Shown: piece by piece, positions 2 to 35,046 of the stretch
Layout: every line of letters begins with the position of its first letter
Position numbering within the stretch: the first letter of the stretch is position 1
NCBI GenBank assembly: GCA_902795745.1
Contig: CADBMG010000057.1
Coordinates: 1-35,513, forward strand
Length of the DNA: 35,513 nt
Direction: 5' to 3'
From: an uncultured Pseudomonadota bacterium
GTDB taxonomy: Bacteria > Pseudomonadota > Alphaproteobacteria > RF32 > CAG-239
Position numbers and translations under genes: made by a program
Notes under the pieces: generated by a model
Databases searched by the model: none
What the model was told of the DNA's origin: nothing
Seen by the model: the letters and a program-made list of their open reading frames with translations, nothing else

Positions 2-1135
2 ATCACAGACGATGTAATTTTTCACAATGTTTATTGCGACAGGGATATTGCCAAACAAAGAGTTTTGCAACGTTCTGCTAAAAACAAAGATGAATTATAC
101 ATTGGCGAAGATGAATTCAATACACTTTGCAAACAATATGAAGCCTGGTCAAACAATGATAAATATCCGGTCATTTTTCATTATAGTAAAAATGAAGATA
201 TTTATACCTCTCCCTTTAATCATAATATTACCAAAATGCACTTCGGCATATATGCAAGCATTATCAAAAACGGAAGTATTCTCCTCATCAAAAAAGCGCG
301 AGGACCATATACCGGACTTTACGATTTGCCGGGAGGAAGCCCAGAACAAGGAGAAAGCTATTCAGACACTTTAAAACGTGAAATTATGGAAGAAACGGGG
401 TGTACCGTTATCAATGCAAAAAATGAGCGTTTTAAATCAATCATTTTTTCTGATTTTACTAAAGAAAGCGGAGAAAAAGGAATATTGCAACACAATGCTG
501 TTTTATATGATGTTGAAATTGAAGGAAACCCAAAAATCACCGGAGATGGTCTTGATTCAAACGGTGCTGTTGGGGTTGACATGAAAAGCTTAAATGCAAA
601 TAATGCAACACCATACGCTTTAATGGCGGCCGGACTTCCTTTAATAAATGTGGCAAATGAAAATGATGAAATTATCGCCACTCACTTGCGGGGAAAAACC
701 TTGAAACAAAATCGCTATCCGATGATTGCAGCAGTTTTATTGTTTAATTCACGCGGTAATTTGATTATGCAAAAGATTGCCGCACATAAAAAGTGGGGCG
801 GATTGTGGACTTATTCGGCGGCCGGACATGTTGATGCAGGAGAAGATTATATAACTGCTTCTCAACGTGAATTAAAAGAAGAAATGGGTATAAATGCCGA
901 AATTGAAAGAGAAATCTCATCTTTTCCGATAATCAGAGAGGGAAGAAAATTTGCTTACCATCATGTTTTTGTCGCTCATTCTGATGATAAAATAACACCT
1001 GATAAATGCGAAGTTGCCGAAATTAGAGAAATTTCTCTATCTGATTTGAAACATGAGATTGCGCAAAATCCCGAGCAATTTTTTGATGGATTTTTGGTGG
1101 CAGTTCAATATTATTTTGAAAAATTCAGCTTGTAA
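2..1135 (+). CDS. Tandem two-domain Nudix hydrolase; 5' end uncertain and possibly cut by the window edge
   Basis: Two complete Nudix boxes (GX5EX7REUXEEXGU): GSPEQGESYSDTLKREIMEETGC and GHVDAGEDYITASQRELKEEMGI. The ORF track starts at TTG 65. The frame is stop-free back to nt 2 and has no early in-frame ATG. Confidence 0.75.
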   Translation: MTDDVIFHNVYCDRDIAKQRVLQRSAKNKDELYIGEDEFNTLCKQYEAWSNNDKYPVIFHYSKNEDIYTSPFNHNITKMHFGIYASIIKNGSILLIKKARGPYTGLYDLPGGSPEQGESYSDTLKREIMEETGCTVINAKNERFKSIIFSDFTKESGEKGILQHNAVLYDVEIEGNPKITGDGLDSNGAVGVDMKSLNANNATPYALMAAGLPLINVANENDEIIATHLRGKTLKQNRYPMIAAVLLFNSRGNLIMQKIAAHKKWGGLWTYSAAGHVDAGEDYITASQRELKEEMGINAEIEREISSFPIIREGRKFAYHHVFVAHSDDKITPDKCEVAEIREISLSDLKHEIAQNPEQFFDGFLVAVQYYFEKFSL

Positions 1136-1715: not shown

Positions 1716-1741
1716 AATAAATATACATACCTGAATGTATA
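1716..1741 (+). promoter_or_regulatory. Operator-like element AATAAATATACATACCTGAATGTATA (inverted repeat TATACAT-N6-ATGTATA), copy A
   Basis: It is the exact reverse complement of 35021-35046. It sits just upstream of a TTGCAA -35-like hexamer (1751-1756) for the 1813 gene. The TATTGCA at 1749-1755 is also shared with the other copy at the same 7-nt distance. Confidence 0.6.
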
Positions 1742-1750
1742 TTTATTTTA

Positions 1751-1779
1751 TTGCAAAATATCTTTATCTATATTATGTT
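1751..1779 (+). promoter_or_regulatory. Candidate sigma70 promoter of the His-rich protein gene (TTGCAA-17 nt-TATGTT)
   Basis: Hexamers and spacing read from the sequence. The -10 is weak. Confidence 0.3.
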
Positions 1780-1812
1780 GATTTTAGAAACAAACTTAAA
1801 AGGAGAACAAAA

Positions 1813-2157
1813 ATGAAAAAAATTCTTTGTATGGTTTTGATGTTTTCGATGTGGGCAAGCACTGCCGGTGCAGAAACGATAATGATATTAGACAGTGCCG
1901 GACGTATGCAACAGCAAATTTATGCTTACCCAGCATCACAACAAGTAGTGGTGCAACAGCCGCAAGTGGTTGTGTCTCAGCCATATCAACCGCAGCAGGT
2001 TGTAGTGGTACGGCAAACACCGCAACCACGTAATTATTACTATGATTCTACGGCAACATCCTTTTTTGCCGGCTTAACCGGAGCTGTTATCGGGGCGGCA
2101 ATTTTCCACCCGCGTCATCACGGTCATCATGGTCATCACGGTCATCACCGCAGATAA
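1813..2157 (+). CDS. Small secreted protein (114 aa) with a Q/V/P-rich repeat core, a glycine-zipper-like hydrophobic segment and a C-terminal HHG repeat tail
   Basis: AAGGAG lies 8 nt upstream of ATG 1813, and the track ORF from 1735 is an upstream extension. Signal-peptide-like MKKILCMVLMFSMWASTAGA. QQVVVQQPQVVVSQPYQPQQVVVV repeats. FFAGLTGAVIGAAIF. HPRHHGHHGHHGHHRR terminus. Confidence 0.7.
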   Translation: MKKILCMVLMFSMWASTAGAETIMILDSAGRMQQQIYAYPASQQVVVQQPQVVVSQPYQPQQVVVVRQTPQPRNYYYDSTATSFFAGLTGAVIGAAIFHPRHHGHHGHHGHHRR

Positions 2158-2185: not shown

Positions 2186-2220
2186 CCCTTGCAATGGTAC
2201 TGTTTTGCAAGGGATTTTTA
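2186..2220. terminator. Intrinsic terminator between convergent genes
   Basis: CCCTTGCAA(2186-2194)/TTGCAAGGG(2205-2213) form a 9-bp stem, followed by ATTTTTA. It abuts the stop of the minus-strand gene at 2218. Confidence 0.7.
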
Positions 2221-2754
2221 CATAACAATCGCCAAACAGAAAATCAATCCACCATAAAAAAATAATCCCAAAGGAGAACTGAGTGCAACCTTAAAATCGG
2301 TTGATGACGGAATAGCATTTTCAATAATCAATGTTTCAATCAGTACAAAAGCCAAATACCGCCATATAGTCGTAATCAAAAAGTATTTATCAAACCAAAA
2401 TGCTAATGGCAAAAGCAATAGGGGAGCCATTGCCGAAGGAAAAGCATTGTAGAACTTTATATTGCGAAAACCAACGCTGCCCATAACATAAGCATCATCG
2501 CGTTTTTTGGGGAACAAGTTAAAAGATGCCGGTTGTGCATTCAAAATAAATCCTACAAGAAAATGTGCCGTTTCATGCAGGACCGTTCCGGGAATGTTTA
2601 CCAGTGATGACATAAAAAGTCCTTGAAATGTATGACGCTTAACAAATGATAGGGATATAACCAAAAGTATAAGATAAAAACGGTTATGCAAAACAATGTT
2701 TAAGAACTCTTCCGAGTTCAAAAAGAGCCAAAAATTATTCATATATTCGCTCAT
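2218..2754 (-). CDS. Polytopic membrane protein with an HExxH motif (putative membrane zincin-type peptidase)
   Basis: LHETAHFLVG lies beside hydrophobic helices, and there are several predicted TM segments. The start overlaps the stop of the upstream TetR gene (ATGA). Confidence 0.5.
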   Translation of the reverse strand: MSEYMNNFWLFLNSEEFLNIVLHNRFYLILLVISLSFVKRHTFQGLFMSSLVNIPGTVLHETAHFLVGFILNAQPASFNLFPKKRDDAYVMGSVGFRNIKFYNAFPSAMAPLLLLPLAFWFDKYFLITTIWRYLAFVLIETLIIENAIPSSTDFKVALSSPLGLFFYGGLIFCLAIVM

Positions 2755-3347
2755 TCTTTGCTCTCAATGACCGTTAATCCGGCAATATATGTGTTGAGCA
2801 ATATTTGGCACAATGTTTTGCGGTTGATTTTAGAAAAAGAGTCTAACATTTCTTTGGTTAAAAACGAACTTAAACCGAACAACGTCAGCCACAAAACCTG
2901 CGAAGAAAGAATCCTTTCAGGACGTTCCATCTTCGGTACAATCTGCTGCATTAAAGCATTTAATCTGCTGGTAATTGCAGCTACTTTGCGTAAATACAAA
3001 AATGAATAGTTATGGGTTTCTTTGCGCAGATGAAAGTGATACAGCAAATACCACAAGTTTTTATTTTTCAGCACAAAATCAACAAAAACATCCAATAAAT
3101 TGTTCAAATCGAAATACGGATTTTGGGTTTGGGGAACCGTTGCCAGTTTCCTTCCCAAAGCATCCAACGTCATATAATTTTCGACCACTATGAAATTTTC
3201 CATATTGGCAAACTGATTATAAATCGCACCTACGGAACATCCCGAAGCCTCGGAAAGTTTGCGTACAGTCAGGGCTTCAGTTCCTTTTTCCTGTACAATT
3301 TTGCGGCCGATATTCAGTAGCATATTTTGAATATTGTCTTTTTCCAT
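2751..3347 (-). CDS. TetR/AcrR family transcriptional regulator
   Basis: N-terminal HTH: TVRKLSEASGCSVGAIYNQFANMENF. Length 198 aa. Confidence 0.85.
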   Translation of the reverse strand: MEKDNIQNMLLNIGRKIVQEKGTEALTVRKLSEASGCSVGAIYNQFANMENFIVVENYMTLDALGRKLATVPQTQNPYFDLNNLLDVFVDFVLKNKNLWYLLYHFHLRKETHNYSFLYLRKVAAITSRLNALMQQIVPKMERPERILSSQVLWLTLFGLSSFLTKEMLDSFSKINRKTLCQILLNTYIAGLTVIESKE

Positions 3348-3446
3348 TTTTTTTCGCCGATTAACAAAATATTTGTATTTGTCGTTTAATATAAATCATA
3401 ATATTAATCTGTTCAAATCATTTTTGCGGTTATGAAAGGAAAATTG

Positions 3447-4343
3447 ATGAAAACGTTCTCTAAAACATATCCTTTTTTATTTTTTTTACTGCTTATGCCA
3501 TTAACAACAGCCGCGGAAGAATCCGTTATTGAAGAATATATTGCTGATGTGGAGGCGGCGGGAAATGCCCAAACTTCGGCACGGAATTTGTTACAGCATC
3601 GACCGCAAAGATTGCATATTCGTCAGCCGGTAGAAAAAACTATGCAAAAGGCGGCAGAACGTGTTTTTAACAAAAGTAAAGATGATGAATTTGCCCCATC
3701 TGTGGAAAATGATAATTTTGAAGAAACTTCAGAGCTTAATGACGTAATTTCTTATGATTCGGCACCATTCAATCTGCTTTGGGGAACTTCTGTTGAATAT
3801 ATGCGCAGACAGGGATGGAAAATGCAAAAAGTTGAGCGTGAGGGATATCAAAATGTTTATGAGATGAGCCATGCCAAATATCCCAACACTCAGTTTACGC
3901 ATGTTGCTGCCGCTTTCGGGCAAAATAATCGACTGTGGTGTATTTTTGCCGAGGGGCAAGCTCTTGACGATGATGCTTCCGCCTCGAAAGTATTAGAATT
4001 ATACGGCAAGTATTATGATGCGCTGAGCGAAAAGTACGGCAATGCTGAGCTGCATTTTGAACCGGCAACGTATGTTAATGAAAATGTAGTTATGCAAAAA
4101 GGGCGTCGGGTTGTTCAACAAGAAACCACGCAAACACCGGTTGGCAATGAACATTTTTTGCAAGAACTTTATGAGGGGAGAGCCAAAATGATTTCTACGT
4201 TTTATAATGATGTGATCGGTGTAACTCTCGGCGTATATGTTGATGATAATGCAAAAAGTCACTTATTGTTGGATTATAAAAATTTGCTCCTTTTAGATAA
4301 AGAAGCACCTATAACAAAGAAAAAGGTTATGGAGGGACTATAA
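3447..4343 (+). CDS. Secreted protein of unknown function (about 298 aa)
   Basis: AAGGA lies 6 nt upstream of ATG 3447, and the track ATG 3432 lacks an SD. Signal-peptide-like MKTFSKTYPFLFFLLLMPLTTAAEES. No motif recognised. Confidence 0.6.
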   Translation: MKTFSKTYPFLFFLLLMPLTTAAEESVIEEYIADVEAAGNAQTSARNLLQHRPQRLHIRQPVEKTMQKAAERVFNKSKDDEFAPSVENDNFEETSELNDVISYDSAPFNLLWGTSVEYMRRQGWKMQKVEREGYQNVYEMSHAKYPNTQFTHVAAAFGQNNRLWCIFAEGQALDDDASASKVLELYGKYYDALSEKYGNAELHFEPATYVNENVVMQKGRRVVQQETTQTPVGNEHFLQELYEGRAKMISTFYNDVIGVTLGVYVDDNAKSHLLLDYKNLLLLDKEAPITKKKVMEGL

Positions 4344-28747: not shown

Positions 28748-30028
28748 TTAAATTATTCTTTGCATTTTGCAAATAAAGAAGGAATCCATACCGCCGCTGA
28801 TTTTATGGTAAAAAGGCATCGTTCTTATCCATCCCTTATCGGTGATAAGCTTGTCGTCCCAAGTTCCGTATGAGCTTATAGTTTCGGTTTTAATCGGTAC
28901 AATTTTAAAATTCGGATGCATTTTTAAGAAGTTATTTATTTGTCTTTCTCCTTCATCTTGGGCAATTGAGCAAACGCTATAAACCAAAATTCCGCCAACG
29001 GTAATTATATTTTCGCATACATTTAACAATTTTTCTTGTAGGGTAGTGGCTTTAGCTACGTCTTCGCTATTCTTGATATGCAAAACTTCCGGATGACGAC
29101 GAAAAGTTCCACTGGCCGAGCATGGAGCATCCAGAAGAACAACATCGTATTTTTCAGTGGAATTTTGCATAAAATCAATTGCATCAATAACTTGGGTTTG
29201 AACATTATTAATCTTTAATCTTTGCAGATTACTGCGCAATTTTTCCAATCGCTCAGCAGATACATCAAGTGCGGTGACATTTGCTCCACCTGTCGCAAGT
29301 TGTGCGGTTTTACCCCCCGGAGCTGCACACAAATCAATCACCTTTTTTCCTTTAATGCTGTCCAGTGTTAGTACGGGTAATGACGCGGCGACATCCTGTA
29401 TCCACCATTTGCCTTCCGAAAATCCTTCCAAATAGGTAATTTTGGTGTTGCCCGACAATCGCAAACTGCCGTTCGGCAAAATCTCAGCGTTGAGCTTTTC
29501 GGCCCAAACATCCGGATTGTCTTTTACCGTAATATCCAGTGGAGGAATATTATTTACACTGCGATTAATTTGTTCAATTTGCATGTCGCTATATCCGCGG
29601 AGGAGCTGTAAAAAGTCCGTCGGTAAATAACAGGATTGTTGCAACTTTTGTTGCCAAATACTTTTTTCTGCGGCAATTTTACGTAAAACAGCATTTGCTA
29701 ATCCGCTCAAAAATTTATCACTGACCTTGCGAACATTTTGTACCGTATCGTTAATTACGGCATATTGCGCCGTATCCATAAGTAAAAGTTCGGCAATTGC
29801 CATCAGTAATAAATATTCGGCAGGACGATGCTTATGCGGAATTTTCTTTTTTAAGAAAAAACGTAAAACATTCTTTAATCCTGCCCAATTGCGCAAACTT
29901 GTCAAAATCAGCATATTGGCAAACGGTAACTCATCTTTGCTGAAATTATCTTTGAGTTCGGCAAAAAATACTTTATTCTCTAAAATAGTTTGCAGAACTT
30001 GTGCGCATTTAATTCTGAGGTTGGGCAT
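28748..30028 (-). CDS. rsmB: 16S rRNA (cytosine-C5)-methyltransferase RsmB/Sun
   Basis: DLCAAPGGKT (SAM), LLDAPCSASGT and YSVCS catalytic cysteines, and a NusB-like N-terminal region. Confidence 0.85.
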   Translation of the reverse strand: MPNLRIKCAQVLQTILENKVFFAELKDNFSKDELPFANMLILTSLRNWAGLKNVLRFFLKKKIPHKHRPAEYLLLMAIAELLLMDTAQYAVINDTVQNVRKVSDKFLSGLANAVLRKIAAEKSIWQQKLQQSCYLPTDFLQLLRGYSDMQIEQINRSVNNIPPLDITVKDNPDVWAEKLNAEILPNGSLRLSGNTKITYLEGFSEGKWWIQDVAASLPVLTLDSIKGKKVIDLCAAPGGKTAQLATGGANVTALDVSAERLEKLRSNLQRLKINNVQTQVIDAIDFMQNSTEKYDVVLLDAPCSASGTFRRHPEVLHIKNSEDVAKATTLQEKLLNVCENIITVGGILVYSVCSIAQDEGERQINNFLKMHPNFKIVPIKTETISSYGTWDDKLITDKGWIRTMPFYHKISGGMDSFFICKMQRII

Positions 30029-33000
30029 TTGTTTCTTTCTTTTGATAATCTGTCATTGTTTGAATCAGAATATACATCAGAGGAATTAAAACCAACCCTG
30101 CCGCCGTACCGATAATCATTCCGGCAAACACCGGTACACCTACGGCAACACGGCTTCCTGCCGATGCCCCACTTGCCCAGACCAGCGGTGCCACACCCAA
30201 GATGAAGGTCATAGCCGTCATTAACACAGCACGGAAACGTTCCTTGGTTCCATATAGGGCGGCGTGCAGTACGGTTGCTCCGCGTTTATGTGCTTCACTG
30301 GCAAATTCTACAATCAAAATAGCATTTTTTGCCGCTAATCCGACCAGCAATACCAAACCAAGTTGGGCGTAGATGCTAAGTGACATTTTTGTGATAAACA
30401 GACCAATTAAAGCTCCGAGCATTGCTCCGGTAACCGACAACATAACCGCAAGCGGAATGGTCCAGCTCTCGTATTGCGCTACCATGAACAGATAGGCAAA
30501 TAAAACAGCAAAGGCGATAATGTAGAAAATCTGACCTTGGTTATTTTTTTCTTGCAGGCTTGCACCTGACCAAGCATAAGTATATCCTTTAGGTAGAGTT
30601 TTAACAGCCAAATCTTCCAATGCTTTCATTGCTTCACCGGTGGAGAACCCGATATTAGCCATAGCATTAACCGTTGCACTCGGATATTGATTATAGCGTT
30701 CAATACCACGCGGCAGCAACACGGTTTTAATCTTGATTAAACTGCCCAACGGAACCATAACACCTTTGCTGCTGTGGACATATATTTTATCCAAACTGCT
30801 CAGGTCTTTACGATATTTCCAATCCGCTTGAATTTTTACCTTATTAACCTGTGTTCCAATATTAATATCATTTACATAGCTTGAACCGATATAAGTTTGT
30901 AACGAAGAATAAATCGTACCGATAGCAACACCTATTGATTCGGCCTTTTCTCGGTCAATTTCAATATAAGCATGAGGTGTTTGCGCATTGTAAGTAGAAT
31001 AAGCCAACATAATTTGCGGCATAGCCATAGCAGCGCGCGTAAAGTTGTTGACAACCGTTTCAAGCTCATTCATATCCGTTGATTCAACAGATTGAATTTT
31101 GAAATCCATGGCATTTGTTGAACCTAATCCCGGAATCGCCGGCATTTCGAAGAATTGAATTTTAGCTTCGGAAAATGTAGAAGTAACAGCTTGCAAACGT
31201 TTTAATATATTGGTTGAAAAATCTTTATCATCCTTTCGTTCATTCCAATTTTTCAAACTCAAAACACCAAAACCGACATTTTCTCCTTGTCCGGCCATAA
31301 TGCTGAAACCTTCCAAATTCATTATTGATTTAACAGCTGATTCGGTCTTTGCTGTTTCCATAATTTTCTGATTAACCGCCTCAGTTCGTACATTTGATGC
31401 ACCTTCCGGCAATTGTACATTTATCATAATTATACCTTGATCTTCATTCGGCAAAAACGAAGTAGCCGTAACTTTAAGGAAAAAGCCGATGCAAATAGCT
31501 ATTATTCCCAAAATAAATACAATTACACTGATTTTGCGTCCCAAATAACTGACCGCCACTAAATATTTATTGGTAATACCGGAGATAAAACGGTTAAACC
31601 AGCCGAGAGGTCCGCTCTTTTTTTCTTCAAACGGTCGTAAAAATGTTGCAGCTAATGCCGGAGACAAAGTCAGCGCATTAACCGACGAAAATAGAATGGC
31701 AAAACTTATAGTTATGGCAAATTGTTGATAGATTTTTCCGGTAATTCCGCCCATAAAGGCAATCGGCACGAAAATCGCAAGCAAAACCAATGTCGTGGCA
31801 ACTACTGCACTTGAAACTTGCTCCATAGCCTTGGTTGCAGCCTTTTTTGGTGAAAGGTTTTCTTCTTGCATCAGGAATAATGAACGTTCCACTACTACAA
31901 TGGCATCATCAACCACCAAACCTATGGCCAAAACTAAACCGAACAACGTCAAAATGTTCAGGTTAAATCCTAATGCTTTCATCACGGCAAAAGTGGCTAA
32001 AATTGAAACCGGAATAGCAATCGACGGTACCAATGTCGCACGCCAATCTTGTAAAAAGATGTAGCAAACAAATACCACTAAGCCGAAAGTCAAAAACAGG
32101 GTAAAGAAGACTTCTTCAATTGATGCCAAAATAAAGTCCGTGGTATCTACGAAGATTTTAACTTCAAAATCTTTCGGATAAAAACGCTCTAATTTTGCTA
32201 ACTCGGCTCTGACGGCTTTCATAGCATTAACGGCATTTGCGCCAGATGATTTGTTAATCATAATTGAAACGGAAGGTTGTCCGTCCACCGTAGAGTTCAG
32301 CAAATAGTTTTCCGAGCCGAGTTCGACACGCGCAATATCTTTAAGACGCACCAGTCCACCTTCTTCAGCCGTGCGTACGATGATATTTTCAAAATCCTTC
32401 GGATCATTTAAACGTCCTTTTGTTTCCAAAGAATACACTAATACCTGCTTACCATCTCCCGGAGCGGAACCTACCGAACCGAGGGACGGCTGAACATTCT
32501 GACTGCGAATAGCTGCCTTAATCGTATCGAGAGGAATGTTTAAGGCGGTGGCTTTATCGGCATCAATCCATACTCGCATACTGATAGCCGAACCCATAAC
32601 GTTAACTTCGCCTACGCCATAAGCGCGACTGATGGCAATTTTAATATTGTTTTCTACATAGTTGTTTAAAAAATTACTGTCATAAGTGCCATTCGGTGAG
32701 GTCACTTGCAAAAATGCCAAAATATCGGACGAACGCCGCTGCACCGTAACACCCATATCTTGCACTTCTTTTGGCAATGTTGCCACAACTTGCTGAATAC
32801 GGTTTTGCACTTTTACTTGGTCAATATCCGGATCGGTACCGGTCTCAAAAGCTACGGAAAGCTGATATGCACCTGAGTTATACGAATTTGATGACATATA
32901 AAGCATATTTTCGATACCGTTAATGGCTTTTTCAATCGGAATTCCGACATTATTTGCCACCGTTTCGGCACTTGCTCCCGGATAAGTGGTTGAAACGCGG

Positions 33001-33131
33001 ATTTCCGGCGGAGCAATTTCCGGATACATGCCGATAGGCATGGTCATAACGGAAACAACACCGGCGAGAGCCATTACAATAGCAATTACGACGGCAAAGC
33101 GAGGTCTGTCAATAAAGAACTTTGAAAACAT
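30009..33131 (-). CDS. RND multidrug efflux transporter, AcrB/HAE1 family
   Basis: MFSKFFIDRPRFAVVIAIV N-terminus, 12-TM architecture with two large periplasmic loops. Length 1040 aa. Confidence 0.95.
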   Translation of the reverse strand: MFSKFFIDRPRFAVVIAIVMALAGVVSVMTMPIGMYPEIAPPEIRVSTTYPGASAETVANNVGIPIEKAINGIENMLYMSSNSYNSGAYQLSVAFETGTDPDIDQVKVQNRIQQVVATLPKEVQDMGVTVQRRSSDILAFLQVTSPNGTYDSNFLNNYVENNIKIAISRAYGVGEVNVMGSAISMRVWIDADKATALNIPLDTIKAAIRSQNVQPSLGSVGSAPGDGKQVLVYSLETKGRLNDPKDFENIIVRTAEEGGLVRLKDIARVELGSENYLLNSTVDGQPSVSIMINKSSGANAVNAMKAVRAELAKLERFYPKDFEVKIFVDTTDFILASIEEVFFTLFLTFGLVVFVCYIFLQDWRATLVPSIAIPVSILATFAVMKALGFNLNILTLFGLVLAIGLVVDDAIVVVERSLFLMQEENLSPKKAATKAMEQVSSAVVATTLVLLAIFVPIAFMGGITGKIYQQFAITISFAILFSSVNALTLSPALAATFLRPFEEKKSGPLGWFNRFISGITNKYLVAVSYLGRKISVIVFILGIIAICIGFFLKVTATSFLPNEDQGIIMINVQLPEGASNVRTEAVNQKIMETAKTESAVKSIMNLEGFSIMAGQGENVGFGVLSLKNWNERKDDKDFSTNILKRLQAVTSTFSEAKIQFFEMPAIPGLGSTNAMDFKIQSVESTDMNELETVVNNFTRAAMAMPQIMLAYSTYNAQTPHAYIEIDREKAESIGVAIGTIYSSLQTYIGSSYVNDINIGTQVNKVKIQADWKYRKDLSSLDKIYVHSSKGVMVPLGSLIKIKTVLLPRGIERYNQYPSATVNAMANIGFSTGEAMKALEDLAVKTLPKGYTYAWSGASLQEKNNQGQIFYIIAFAVLFAYLFMVAQYESWTIPLAVMLSVTGAMLGALIGLFITKMSLSIYAQLGLVLLVGLAAKNAILIVEFASEAHKRGATVLHAALYGTKERFRAVLMTAMTFILGVAPLVWASGASAGSRVAVGVPVFAGMIIGTAAGLVLIPLMYILIQTMTDYQKKETNAQPQN

Positions 33132-33142
33132 TTCTCTTCCCC

Positions 33143-34327
33143 CTATTTATCGGCTAAAATACCGATTTTAATCGGTGAATTATTTTGGATTTTTACATTA
33201 CCTTGCACAATGACTTTTTCGCCTTCATTAAGTCCGCTCAAAACGGCTTGTTCGTTACCGTTAATAGCATCGCCCAGCACCACGCGTCGTTGTTCGGCAA
33301 CTCCGTGCCAGTCATTTTCTTTGCTTGTCTCTTCATTGATTTTGGCAATATAAACAAATGCACCATCCTTGTCGTAGTTTACGGCAGTCTGCGGTATAAC
33401 AACTTTATAATTCGGCTCATTATCTGTTATCGCTGTCTGCACATAATTACCGGGAATTAGACGACCGGAGGAATTAGCTACATCGGTATATACAGTTATG
33501 GTAGCGGTATTGGTGTTTACGGCATTATCTATAAATTTGTTTACCACTTTTTCATTTACGGTTTCTCCTGTTGCCAAAGTAATACGTGCCTGCAAATCTT
33601 TGTCGGCATAATCTTTTTGCATCAATGAAGCAACTTCTTTGTCAGTCAGTGAAAAACTGATGCGCACCGGATCAACCTGAACAATGCGTGCCAACACAAC
33701 GCTCGAAGCCACCACATAGTTGCCTTTTGTTACCAAAACCTTACCGATTTTACCGCTAATAGGTGCGGTAACTTTGGTTTCATCCAAATCCTTTTTGGCA
33801 ACGTCCAAATTGGCTTTGGCTTCTTCAACAGCAGCTTTTGCTTGCAAGTAGGCACTTTCTGATGTATCAAAAGTTGCTTTTGAGGCATATTTTTCTTGGC
33901 TCAATTTAACTTGGCGGTTGTAATCGCGTTCTGCTTTAACTAAATTAGCCTTTGCGCTGTCCAAACGAGCTGTTGCCAAATCGTATGCTGCTTCGTATTT
34001 TGAAGAATCAATTTCAAATAAAACCTGTCCTTCAGTCACAAGACTTCCTTCATCAAACAAAACTTTTTCTACCGTACCGGTAACTTGCGGTAGAATACTC
34101 ACTTCATTAATTGCTTCAATGTAAGAAATTTTATCATTGAAGGAAGAAATATCTTTTTTATCTGCTCCTTGTGCCAAAACGTAAACTTCTCCGCCATAGC
34201 CCATCATATTGGCACTTGGTGAAAGACGCCCTTTCAAATACCAGCCAATGGCAACACAAAATATAAATAAGGCAATTTTTTTCGATATTTCTTTTAAATT
34301 AGGATAATTAATCTTCATCTTTTTCAC
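33143..34327 (-). CDS. RND efflux periplasmic adaptor (membrane fusion protein, AcrA family)
   Basis: N-terminal anchor, coiled-coil hairpin (AYDLATARLDSAKANL...AKAAVEEAKANLDVAKKDL), then lipoyl and beta-barrel segments. Confidence 0.9.
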   Translation of the reverse strand: MKKMKINYPNLKEISKKIALFIFCVAIGWYLKGRLSPSANMMGYGGEVYVLAQGADKKDISSFNDKISYIEAINEVSILPQVTGTVEKVLFDEGSLVTEGQVLFEIDSSKYEAAYDLATARLDSAKANLVKAERDYNRQVKLSQEKYASKATFDTSESAYLQAKAAVEEAKANLDVAKKDLDETKVTAPISGKIGKVLVTKGNYVVASSVVLARIVQVDPVRISFSLTDKEVASLMQKDYADKDLQARITLATGETVNEKVVNKFIDNAVNTNTATITVYTDVANSSGRLIPGNYVQTAITDNEPNYKVVIPQTAVNYDKDGAFVYIAKINEETSKENDWHGVAEQRRVVLGDAINGNEQAVLSGLNEGEKVIVQGNVKIQNNSPIKIGILADK

Positions 34328-34943
34328 TCTCTGTTTTAATACTGTTGAAAATCAAATTGAAACCGGTACGTACCGCATCATCAAAATCATACGTTAGTCG
34401 TTTAGAAAAATAGCCTTCAAGCAAACCGCTGTACATCATTCTGAGCAATTCTGCAATCATAACCACATCAACATCATCACGAATCTTGCCGCGTTTTTGT
34501 AAACCTAACAGGCTCTCATACATCAAACTGCGACCAATATTTTGCGTTTTTTCAATTGAAGGACGGACTTTACTGATAATACTTTCGCTCCACTCCATCT
34601 GACTGGTAATGAAAAACAAAAATTTTGAAAATTTTTCATCTTCTCTGATGTGTTTATTAATTAGAAGCTCCATATCAATAATGTCGGTGAATTCCAACTC
34701 ATTACGTGCTTCCATAAAGTTACGAATAAGCACCAAATGCTTTTCGGCAAAATCATTAATCAGGGCGGCCACAATATCAGGTTTATTTCTGAAATTCCAA
34801 TAAACTGCACCTTTAGTTAAGTTTATACGCTTGGCAATTTCATCAAAGGTAGTTTTGGAATAGCCTTTTTCACAGAAAATATCCATAGCCGAAGCTAAAA
34901 TATCTTGGCGAGTTTGCTCGGCATCAGCCTTTGTTCGTCGCAT
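34308..34943 (-). CDS. TetR/AcrR family regulator of the efflux cluster
   Basis: HTH TTFDEIAKRINLTKGAVYWNFRNK. The start is set at ATG 34943 (AAGGA 8 nt upstream). The track start 35027 would read through the promoter and operators. Confidence 0.85.
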   Translation of the reverse strand: MRRTKADAEQTRQDILASAMDIFCEKGYSKTTFDEIAKRINLTKGAVYWNFRNKPDIVAALINDFAEKHLVLIRNFMEARNELEFTDIIDMELLINKHIREDEKFSKFLFFITSQMEWSESIISKVRPSIEKTQNIGRSLMYESLLGLQKRGKIRDDVDVVMIAELLRMMYSGLLEGYFSKRLTYDFDDAVRTGFNLIFNSIKTESEKDED

Positions 34944-34964
34944 CGTATTAATCCTTTGCAAAAT

Positions 34965-34986
34965 ATTCATACTAAGCAGTATGTAT
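34965..34986 (-). promoter_or_regulatory. Operator-like palindrome O2 (ATTCATACT-AAGC-AGTATGTAT) overlapping the candidate -10
   Basis: 9-bp inverted repeat with one mismatch. In gene orientation it shares TATACATAC..TG with the 26-bp element. Confidence 0.45.
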
Positions 34987-35011
34987 ATAGCAATTTTGAC
35001 TAGAAATGCAA
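34984..35011 (-). promoter_or_regulatory. Candidate promoter of the efflux TetR-MFP-RND operon (TTGCAT-16 nt-TATATA)
   Basis: Hexamers read on the minus strand. The -35 lies inside the conserved TATTGCA. Confidence 0.4.
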
Positions 35012-35020
35012 TATTTTTTT

Positions 35021-35046
35021 TATACATTCAGGTATGTATATTTATT
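35021..35046 (-). promoter_or_regulatory. Operator-like element TATACATTCAGGTATGTATATTTATT (inverted repeat TATACAT-N6-ATGTATA), copy B
   Basis: It is the exact reverse complement of 1716-1741. It has the same orientation and similar distance relative to its downstream gene as copy A. Confidence 0.6.

What the first reader, a model, noticed from the sequence alone, without database searches (positions are those of the whole stretch)
1716..1755. Identical 26-bp palindromic element shared with the efflux regulator promoter 33 kb away (copy A)
1716-1741 (AATAAATATACATACCTGAATGTATA) is the exact reverse complement of 35021-35046. In both places TATTGCA follows after exactly 7 nt and contains a -35-like TTGCA. 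Both copies have the same orientation relative to the downstream gene, at 59 and 65 nt from the end of the conserved block to the ATG. The core is an inverted repeat (TATACAT-N6-ATGTATA), as expected for a dimeric TetR-type operator. This implies that the small His-rich secreted protein and the TetR-MFP-RND operon belong to one regulon.
Basis: partly seen in the sequence, partly recalled or inferred. Interest (0 to 1): 0.62.

Follow-up and report, generated by a model that had tools for sequence, protein, structure and literature searches.

The report
AcrR-type operator shared by two promoters
The repeated 26-base element is the conserved binding site of the efflux pump's own AcrR-like repressor, and a second copy places an unlinked gene for a small histidine-rich membrane protein under the same control in many related gut bacteria.

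Summary
1716-1741 (+) is the exact reverse complement of 35021-35046, and 0 of 100 shuffles gave a match. The core ATACAT-N6-ATGTAT has the same half-sites and spacing as the experimentally defined E. coli AcrR operator.

In 80 orthologous TetR-MFP-RND loci from uncultured gut and rumen Alphaproteobacteria, the motif lies just upstream of the TetR gene and almost nowhere else. Matches with at most 1 mismatch number 75 inside the 130 nt upstream and 1 in the remaining 892 kb.

Close relatives carry two sites.

The distal-type module (operator, AT-rich spacer, TTGCA, 17 nt, TAnnnn) also precedes the His-rich gene in 13 of 14 homologue loci, in differing gene neighbourhoods. An exact-pattern scan of metagenomes found only these two contexts, one analogous His-rich lipoprotein and one chance hit.

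The regulator is most likely the adjacent AcrR/MtrR-like TetR (34308-34943), not the second TetR (2751-3347). Binding, the sign of regulation at the His-rich promoter and the protein's function remain inferred. This is a new member of a known kind and of moderate interest.

The parts
1716..1741 (+).
1716..1747 (.). Full palindrome at the His-rich promoter: AATAAATATACAT-ACCTGA-ATGTATATTTATT (13+6+13). The 10+6+10 part, AAATATACAT-N6-ATGTATATTT (1719-1744), is conserved in His-rich promoters of other species.
   Evidence: (I7)
1723..1740 (.). Core operator ATACATACCTGAATGTAT (ATACAT-N6-ATGTAT)
   Evidence: match to the E. coli AcrR site
1751..1756 (+). Inferred -35 hexamer TTGCAA. It starts 28 nt after the first base of the core operator, an offset kept in the homologous promoters (one nt less in L109).
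   Evidence: alignment of 12 His-rich-type promoters; inference
1774..1779 (+). Inferred -10 hexamer TATGTT, 17 nt after the -35. TA occupies its first two positions in 11 of the 12 aligned promoters (not in L100).
   Evidence: inference, no TSS data
1813..2157 (+). Gene for a 114-aa exported, His-rich small membrane protein. It has a signal peptide, a beta-hairpin, a Q/P/V-rich linker, a YYYD motif, a Gly-rich TM helix (79-97) and a GHH-repeat tail ending in RR. The family is an orphan.
35021..35046 (-).
35006..35011 (-). Inferred -35 hexamer TTGCAT of the TetR operon promoter, preceded by an A8 tract
   Evidence: consensus GTATAAAAAAaaT.TTGcA across 46 promoters; inference
34984..34989 (-). 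Inferred -10 hexamer TATATA, 16 nt after the -35
   Evidence: inference
34969..34986 (-). Proximal operator ATACATACTGCTTAGTAT (2 mismatches). It overlaps the -10 and the expected start site, and begins 53 bp downstream of the distal operator.
34308..34943 (-). AcrR/MtrR-like TetR-family regulator (211 aa), the proposed binder. The true start is MRRTK. The 239-aa ORF beginning at 35027 is an over-extension into the operator.
33143..34327 (-). RND periplasmic adaptor (MFP)
30009..33131 (-). HAE1-type RND multidrug efflux permease

Best explanation
The element is the cognate operator of the AcrR/MtrR-like TetR repressor encoded at 34308-34943. A dimer, or a pair of dimers, recognises ATACAT-N6-ATGTAT with AT-rich palindromic flanks.

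At its own operon (TetR-MFP-RND) there are two operators about five helical turns apart. One is a high-affinity distal site just upstream of the -35 (35022-39). The other is a weaker proximal site over the -10 and start site (34969-86). Together they give autorepression.

The distal module (operator, 7-8 nt AT spacer, TTGCA -35) is also the promoter of the unlinked His-rich small membrane protein gene at 1813-2157. That gene is therefore a second member of the regulon.

Bound repressor is centred near -54 and spans roughly -41 to -68. Most likely it blocks RNA polymerase alpha-CTD and sigma region 4 docking on the AT-rich upstream region. Pump substrates that release the TetR from DNA would then co-induce the pump and the His-rich protein.

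What is shown: the sequence identity, the conservation and specificity of the motif in both contexts, and the match to the E. coli AcrR site. What is inferred: binding by this TetR (probability about 0.85-0.9), promoter and start-site positions, repression rather than activation at the His-rich promoter (about 0.6), ligand-induced release, and any role for the His-rich protein.
For: - Exact 26-nt identity, with 0 of 100 shuffles matching.
- Across 80 orthologous TetR loci (37-83% identity), perfect matches to ATACAT-N6-ATGTAT number 35 within 130 nt upstream of the TetR start and 0 elsewhere. One-mismatch matches number 40 inside and 1 outside. The compared spans are 10.4 kb and 892 kb.
- TetR-MFP-RND order and strand are kept in all 80 loci (RND found in 79).
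- The helix-turn-helix GYSKTTFDEIAKRINLTKGAVYWxFRNKPD is nearly invariant across these species.
- The published E. coli AcrR site, TACATACATTTGTGAATGTATGTA (PMC10597343), has identical half-sites and spacing. I read it in MG1655, 27 nt upstream of the acrR ATG. The N-terminal DNA-binding domain is 46% identical to AcrR.
- The closest solved relatives are all RND-pump repressors: SmeT, TtgR, NalD, MtrR and AcrR.
- The two-site architecture and the -35/-10 elements are conserved in 46 aligned promoters.
- The operator and promoter module is present upstream of His-rich homologues in L091-L096, L099, L104, L106, L107, L109, L113, L114, L116 and L117, with different flanking genes.
- In a second species both targets lie on one contig and both carry the core, although the two copies are not identical there.
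- An exact-pattern scan of metagenomes gave 8 TetR contexts, 8 His-rich-family contexts, 1 analogous His-rich lipoprotein and 1 intragenic hit in an unrelated gene. One metagenome (Ga0247611) holds exactly the two window loci.
Against: - There is no binding or expression data, and no RNA runs hold the locus.
- A site centred near -54, upstream of the -35, is not where TetR-family pump repressors usually act. The His-rich promoter has no recognisable proximal site, so the sign of regulation there is uncertain.
- Promoter hexamers are inferred from conservation only. The strict consensus scan did not call them. Several inferred -10 hexamers lack the usual final T.
- The most distant His-rich homologue, in L118, has no site.
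- Whole genomes could not be scanned, so weaker regulon members may exist.
Confidence: 0.8

Rival explanations
1. The same TetR binds, but from the distal position it activates or acts dually. It would contact RNA polymerase from about -54 at the His-rich promoter and repress only through the proximal site at its own operon. The His-rich protein would then be made when the pump is off and shut down on induction, giving reciprocal regulation.
For: - The operator is held at a fixed offset of 27-28 nt to the -35 in 12 of 12 aligned His-rich-type promoters and in the TetR promoters. Fixed spacing is typical of activators.
- The inferred -10 hexamers are weak.
- There is no promoter-overlapping site at the His-rich gene.
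- From general knowledge, some TetR-family proteins such as LuxR/HapR, PsrA and FasR activate transcription. NCBIfam models named for HapR and FasR hit this protein weakly.
Against: - All closest characterised and solved relatives (AcrR, MtrR, TtgR, SmeT, NalD) are repressors.
- -54.5 is not a canonical class I or class II activator position (general knowledge).
- The fixed spacing may simply be inherited, because these promoters are homologous.
- The AT-rich tract between operator and -35 looks like an UP-element that a bound protein would occlude.
Confidence: 0.15
2. The element is bound by a different regulator, either the second TetR at 2751-3347 or a global factor. Its presence at the TetR operon would then reflect cross-regulation rather than autoregulation.
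For: TetR2 lies 600 bp from the His-rich gene in the window.
Against: - TetR2 is only 22% identical, with a different recognition helix.
- TetR2 is absent from all 80 efflux loci and from the His-rich loci of the other species with sequenced flanks.
- The motif tracks the AcrR-like gene in 80 species and equals the E. coli AcrR site.
Confidence: 0.03
3. The repeat has no regulatory role. It would be a recent promoter duplication, a small dispersed repeat, or an AU-rich hairpin acting as a terminator.
For: - Copy A can form a 14-bp hairpin of -11.3 kcal/mol (z = -4.75) followed by a U-rich stretch.
- The two window copies are identical well beyond the core half-sites.
Against: - Copy B folds weakly (-4.5 kcal/mol, z = -1.35) and is followed by A8.
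- Proximal sites vary in one arm without compensating changes in the other. That fits protein recognition, not RNA pairing.
- Only two copies exist in the window, and there are only two contexts in the metagenomes.
- The core is conserved across species whose flanks have diverged, and the two copies within one other genome are not identical.
Confidence: 0.02

Closest known systems
E. coli AcrR and its 24-bp operator in the acrR-acrAB intergenic region
   Same: - The half-sites ATACAT/ATGTAT and the 6-bp spacing are identical, and 15 of 18 core positions match.
- The flanks are palindromic, giving a total length of about 24-26 bp.
- The regulator is a TetR-family protein encoded next to an MFP-RND pair, and its HTH domain is 46% identical.
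- The proximal site here sits about 40 nt upstream of the regulator's ATG. The E. coli site starts 51 nt and ends 27 nt upstream of the acrR ATG.
   Different: - Here the regulator is co-directional and apparently co-transcribed with the pump genes, not divergent from them.
- There is a second, stronger distal operator upstream of the -35.
- The flanking bases are AAT/ATT, whereas E. coli has TAC/GTA.
- Outside the HTH the proteins are not alignable by BLASTP.
- NCBIfam scores are far below the AcrR and MtrR cut-offs.
Neisseria gonorrhoeae MtrR (and E. coli AcrR) as local pump repressors with extra, unlinked targets
   Same: A pump-adjacent TetR also controls genes elsewhere. AcrR on flhDC is documented in PMC10597343. 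The MtrR regulon is from general knowledge. MtrR is the best NCBIfam hit and has solved DNA complexes.
   Different: - Here the extra target appears to be single.
- It carries a perfect operator.
- It is conserved across many species.
- It encodes an orphan His-rich membrane protein.
AcrZ, the small membrane protein co-regulated with acrAB that binds AcrB
   Same: The logic is shared. A small single-pass membrane protein is encoded away from the pump genes but transcribed under the same control (PMC7267776).
   Different: - AcrZ is co-regulated through MarA/Rob/SoxS (general knowledge), not through the local TetR.
- AcrZ has 49 aa and lacks a signal peptide and a His-rich tail (general knowledge).
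- No sequence relationship was tested, and no interaction between the His-rich protein and the pump has been shown.
TtgR, SmeT and NalD, the nearest solved structures
   Same: They are RND-pump TetR repressors with palindromic operators overlapping promoters, like the proximal site here (operator positions from general knowledge).
   Different: From general knowledge, no conserved operator upstream of the -35 and no unlinked small-protein target is described for them.

Membership tests
TetR/AcrR-family efflux repressor operator | Inverted repeat with two half-sites at a fixed spacing | tested here: met
   TATACAT-N6-ATGTATA in both copies
TetR/AcrR-family efflux repressor operator | Located in the promoter region of the regulator's own gene or operon, and conserved there among orthologues | tested here: met
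   80 of 80 loci carry a match with up to 2 mismatches within 130 nt upstream. Matches with up to 1 mismatch number 75 inside and 1 outside.
TetR/AcrR-family efflux repressor operator | Adjacent regulator has a TetR_N helix-turn-helix and is related to known pump repressors | tested here: met
   PF00440 at E = 4e-14. Best NCBIfam hits are MtrR, EnvR and AcrR, all below their curated cut-offs. PDB neighbours are SmeT, TtgR, NalD, MtrR and AcrR.
TetR/AcrR-family efflux repressor operator | Sequence agreement with an experimentally defined operator of the subfamily | tested here: met
   E. coli AcrR site TACATACATTTGTGAATGTATGTA has identical half-sites and spacing.
TetR/AcrR-family efflux repressor operator | Specific binding by the protein, and release by a ligand | not testable with these tools
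   Needs EMSA or footprinting and ligand assays.
Regulon membership of the His-rich gene | Operator conserved upstream of orthologues in other species | tested here: met
   13 of 14 homologue loci carry it, in different gene neighbourhoods.
Regulon membership of the His-rich gene | Regulator-dependent co-expression | not testable with these tools
   No RNA runs hold the locus.
Dispersed repeat (REP or MITE-like) | Many copies at unrelated loci | tested here: not met
   There are 2 copies in the window. There is 1 stray match in 892 kb of related genomes. The metagenome scan gave only two gene contexts plus one chance intragenic hit.
Intrinsic terminator | Stable G+C-rich stem followed by a U-run in both copies | tested here: not met
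   Copy B folds at -4.5 kcal/mol and is followed by A8. The terminator scans did not call either copy.
AcrZ-like pump accessory protein | Physical association with the RND permease that alters substrate profile | not tested
   Only the regulatory logic is analogous. The monomer model has low confidence.

The most novel reading that the evidence does not exclude
The orphan His-rich, single-pass membrane protein is a dedicated partner of the RND pump. It would resemble AcrZ in logic, be unrelated to it in sequence, and possibly link efflux to metal or proton chemistry through its GHH-repeat tail. It would be controlled through an unusual TetR operator fixed at about -54. That operator would work either by occluding the UP-element or by activation, neither of which is the described mode for pump-associated TetR repressors.
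Probability: 0.2. Interest if true: 0.65.

Novelty: new member of a known kind. Interest (0 to 1): 0.45.

Why it matters
- It gives a specific, testable two-target regulon for an RND efflux system in an uncultured, poorly studied clade of gut and rumen Alphaproteobacteria.
- It shows that the AcrR half-site code (ATACAT-N6-ATGTAT) is shared between Gamma- and Alphaproteobacteria.
- It attaches a first functional lead, co-control with a multidrug-type pump, to an orphan family of small His-rich membrane proteins.
- The conserved operator upstream of the -35 is a simple natural system for asking how a TetR protein regulates from outside the core promoter.
- It also flags a practical annotation problem. 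The ATG inside the operator half-site makes gene callers over-extend both downstream ORFs.

Tried and rejected
- **Exact-protein look-up of the 211-aa TetR.** It found nothing, because the database holds the over-extended 239-aa call.
- **Ten contigs carrying the identical His-rich protein.** They were near-identical strains, so they were uninformative for footprinting.
- **Strict sigma-70 consensus scan.** It did not call either promoter. Promoter elements were inferred from cross-species conservation instead.
- **RNA-seq evidence for start sites or co-expression.** None was available.
- **Pfam and NCBIfam searches.** They gave nothing for the His-rich protein, the 178-aa and 303-aa neighbours, or the small ORF that precedes the His-rich gene in other species.
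- **AlphaFold model of the His-rich protein.** Confidence was low (pLDDT 55.7), so no fold search was run.
- **Rfam scan of the window.** No RNA family reached the gathering score, so there is no riboswitch upstream of the His-rich gene.
- **Sigma-54 reading of the conserved TTGCA.** Rejected by eye, because there is no GG 12 nt upstream.
- **An alternative promoter using the operator's right arm (TATATT or TATAAA) as -10.** Rejected, because the matching -35 position holds only AATAAA-like sequence.
- **HTH-operator covariation.** It could not be used, because both are essentially invariant.
- **Synteny search for the neighbours seen in other species (M50B peptidase, small ORF, S66 peptidase).** tblastn against the window found nothing.

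Full report
**Observation**

I read both sites directly. 1716-1741 (+), AATAAATATACATACCTGAATGTATA, is the exact reverse complement of 35021-35046. With up to three mismatches allowed these are the only two matches in the 35.5-kb window, and none of 100 dinucleotide-preserving shuffles gave any. The similarity extends to 48 nt at 85% (I1).

TATTGCA follows 7 nt after the block in both copies, and both copies face their downstream gene in the same orientation. The core is TATACAT-N6-ATGTATA. In copy A the symmetry extends to 13+6+13 (1716-1747).

Two small corrections apply. The distances from TATTGCA to the ATG are 58 and 64 nt by my count. The 26-mer as a whole is not a palindrome.

**Genes**

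- 34308-34943 (-) encodes a 211-aa TetR-family protein. Its best family matches are MtrR, EnvR and AcrR, all below the curated cut-offs.
- It is followed by an RND adaptor (33143-34327) and an HAE1-type RND permease (30009-33131).
- The end of an outer-membrane efflux protein gene lies upstream on the same strand.
- 1813-2157 (+) encodes a 114-aa protein with no family match. It has a signal peptide ending AGA|E, a short beta-hairpin, a Q/P/V-rich low-confidence linker, a YYYD motif, a Gly-rich hydrophobic helix (residues 79-97) and a GHH-repeat tail ending in RR.
- Its family is tiny. There are 19 homologues in 5.8 billion clusters, and 41 representatives in 1.84 billion proteins.
- The source is an uncultured low-GC (about 38%) gut or rumen alphaproteobacterium.

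**The element is the conserved operator of the AcrR-like TetR**

I fetched 80 orthologous TetR loci, one per species, at 37-83% identity. TetR-MFP-RND order and strand are kept in all 80 loci, with the RND gene found in 79.

| Match to ATACAT-N6-ATGTAT | Within 130 nt upstream of the TetR start (10.4 kb) | Elsewhere (892 kb) |
|---|---|---|
| Perfect | 35 | 0 |
| One mismatch | 40 | 1 |

66 of 80 loci have a site with at most 1 mismatch, and 80 of 80 have one with at most 2. The helix-turn-helix GYSKTTFDEIAKRINLTKGAVYWxFRNKPD is almost invariant across the same species.

The published E. coli AcrR site in the acrAB promoter is TACATACATTTGTGAATGTATGTA (PMC10597343). I read it in MG1655, 27 nt upstream of the acrR ATG. 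Its half-sites and 6-bp spacing are identical to the element here, and 15 of 18 core positions match. The DNA-binding domain of the window protein is 46% identical to that of AcrR. The nearest solved structures are SmeT, TtgR, NalD, MtrR and AcrR, all RND-pump repressors.

**Architecture of the TetR promoter**

I aligned 46 promoters on the distal site. The consensus is aatAAATATACATACCtgAAtGTATAAAAAAaaT.TTGcA, then 16-17 nt, then TATAcatAc....gtaT.

- A distal operator is followed by an A-tract and a TTGCA/TTGAA -35.
- The -10 overlaps a second, proximal operator (ATACATAC-N6-GTAT).
- The two operators start 50-53 bp apart.
- In the window the proximal site is 34969-34986. The inferred hexamers are TTGCAT (35011-35006) and TATATA (34989-34984).
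- More distant relatives (L056-L090) mostly carry only one site, 39-62 nt upstream of the start codon; three of them (L058, L061, L064) carry two.

**The His-rich gene is a conserved second target**

- Five further species reached through protein homologues at 41-73% identity carry a perfect core operator about 90 nt upstream of the His-rich start. Four match the window's core exactly apart from one spacer base in L091, and L117 has a different spacer.
- Their neighbouring genes differ from those in the window. An M50B-type peptidase and a small ORF lie upstream in those species, none of which is present in the window.
- An exact scan of JGI metagenomes for ATATACATACCNGAATGTATA returned 18 loci:
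  - 8 are upstream of the TetR gene.
  - 8 are upstream of His-rich family genes.
  - 1 (L100) is upstream of an unrelated 123-aa lipoprotein that also has a His-rich C-terminus.
  - 1 lies inside a 450-aa ORF of an unrelated organism, which is a chance hit.
- One metagenome (Ga0247611) yielded exactly the two window loci.
- Only the most distant homologue, in L118, lacks the site.
- In all 12 aligned His-rich-type promoters the -35 starts 27-28 nt after the first base of the core operator. In all but L100, which has TTTACA, the -35 begins TTG. TA starts the hexamer 17 nt beyond the -35 in 11 of the 12 (TATGTT in the window, 1774-1779).
- In one other species both targets lie about 40 kb apart on one contig. 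Both carry the core, but the two copies differ in the spacer, one half-site base and the flanks.

The perfect 26-nt identity in the window therefore reflects strong constraint on an extended operator, not a general rule or a recent duplication.

**Which regulator**

TetR2 (2751-3347) is 22% identical to the AcrR-like protein and has a different recognition helix. It is absent from all 80 efflux loci and from the His-rich loci of the other species with sequenced flanks. The AcrR-like TetR is the obvious binder.

**Mechanism**

If transcription starts about 7 nt after the inferred -10, the operator centre is near -54 in both promoters. A 24-28-bp footprint would cover roughly -41 to -68. That is the UP-element and alpha-CTD region, ending a few bases from the -35.

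At the TetR operon the proximal site provides ordinary occlusion. The distal site probably adds affinity or cooperativity. The constant spacing of about five turns may also just follow from both sites being anchored to promoter elements.

At the His-rich promoter only the distal-type site exists. I judge repression by blocking alpha-CTD and sigma-4 docking most likely (about 0.6), with co-induction by pump substrates. Activation or dual control from -54 is the main rival (about 0.15-0.2). It would be favoured by the strict spacing and the weak -10 hexamers. It is disfavoured because every close characterised relative is a repressor.

No start-site or expression data could be obtained. The promoter hexamers are inferred from conservation, because the strict consensus scan did not call them.

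**Rivals rejected**

- *Dispersed repeat.* The copy numbers and contexts above rule it out.
- *RNA hairpin or terminator.* Copy A can form a -11.3 kcal/mol hairpin followed by a U-rich stretch. Copy B folds at only -4.5 kcal/mol and is followed by A8. Proximal sites vary in one arm without compensation.
- *Known RNA family.* None is present in the window.

**Comparison with known systems**

This is an AcrR-type operator and a local pump repressor with an extra target. That pattern is known for AcrR (flhDC; PMC10597343) and, from general knowledge, for MtrR. A small membrane protein co-regulated with an RND pump has a precedent in AcrZ (PMC7267776). AcrZ, however, is controlled by other regulators and is unrelated in form.

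New here are three things: the conserved operator upstream of the -35, the reuse of that half-promoter at a second gene, and the identity of the target, an orphan His-rich membrane protein.

**Verdict**

It is a new member of a known kind. Interest is moderate at 0.45.

Noticed in passing
window 1735-2157 (+) and 34308-35027 (-): The right half-site of the operator contains an in-frame ATG. Mechanical ORFs, and the database gene call P0001 (239 aa), therefore start inside the operator. Alignment with homologues shows the true starts are 1813 (MKK...) and 34943 (MRRTK...), each with a good AGGAG or AAGGA ribosome-binding site.
   Followed up: yes
window 2114-2147: The His-rich tail is encoded by three tandem 9-nt units (GTCATCA[C/T]G), shown as family D5. 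Homologues differ in the length and pattern of the His tail, which is consistent with slippage-prone repeats.
   Followed up: partly
L100:1565-2015: The same operator, with a TTTACA -35, precedes a 123-aa lipoprotein (LGGC lipobox). It is unrelated in sequence to the window protein but is also Q/P/Y-rich with a His-rich C-terminus and no TM helix. The His-rich exported feature, rather than the fold, may be what is selected.
   Followed up: partly
L016:5882-5980; L106:3040-3095: L016 has a third operator-like site between the proximal site and the TetR ATG. L106 has an extra copy of the left half, ATATACATACCTG, 30 nt upstream of the full operator at the His-rich gene.
   Followed up: no
window about 1141-1346 (upstream of the His-rich gene): Independent assemblies of near-identical strains end at a few recurring points, 467, 541, 579 and 672 nt upstream of the ATG. 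The region holds short repeats (cgaggaatgac occurs twice at about 1314-1358) and a hairpin at 1168-1187. It may be a strain-variable or rearranged junction. In other species the His-rich gene has different upstream neighbours.
   Followed up: no
window 65-1135 (+); L001:602-2323: The ORF at the left edge carries two NUDIX domains. On a longer contig the gene call is a 573-aa fusion with Zeta_toxin/AAA, pyrophosphatase and NUDIX hits, an unusual domain combination.
   Followed up: no
window 28748-30028 (-) and L011-L079: An RsmB-like 16S rRNA methyltransferase gene overlaps the 3' end of the RND gene by 20 nt. It follows the RND gene on the same strand in 40 of the 80 related loci, so it may be co-transcribed with the pump.
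   Followed up: partly
window 2218-3347 (-): TetR2 (198 aa) overlaps by 4 nt a 178-aa protein with no family match. The pair looks like a separate small operon, divergent from the 303-aa ORF at 3432-4343. Its target is unknown, and the 3348-3431 intergenic region has no copy of the AcrR-type motif.
   Followed up: partly
L091-L096, L116 (upstream of His-rich homologues): In five other species the His-rich gene is preceded on the same strand by a conserved 95-133-aa acidic ORF with no family match. Beyond that lies a divergent PF13398 (Peptidase_M50B) membrane protein with an HExxH motif. The operator sits between the small ORF's stop codon and the His-rich gene.
   Followed up: partly
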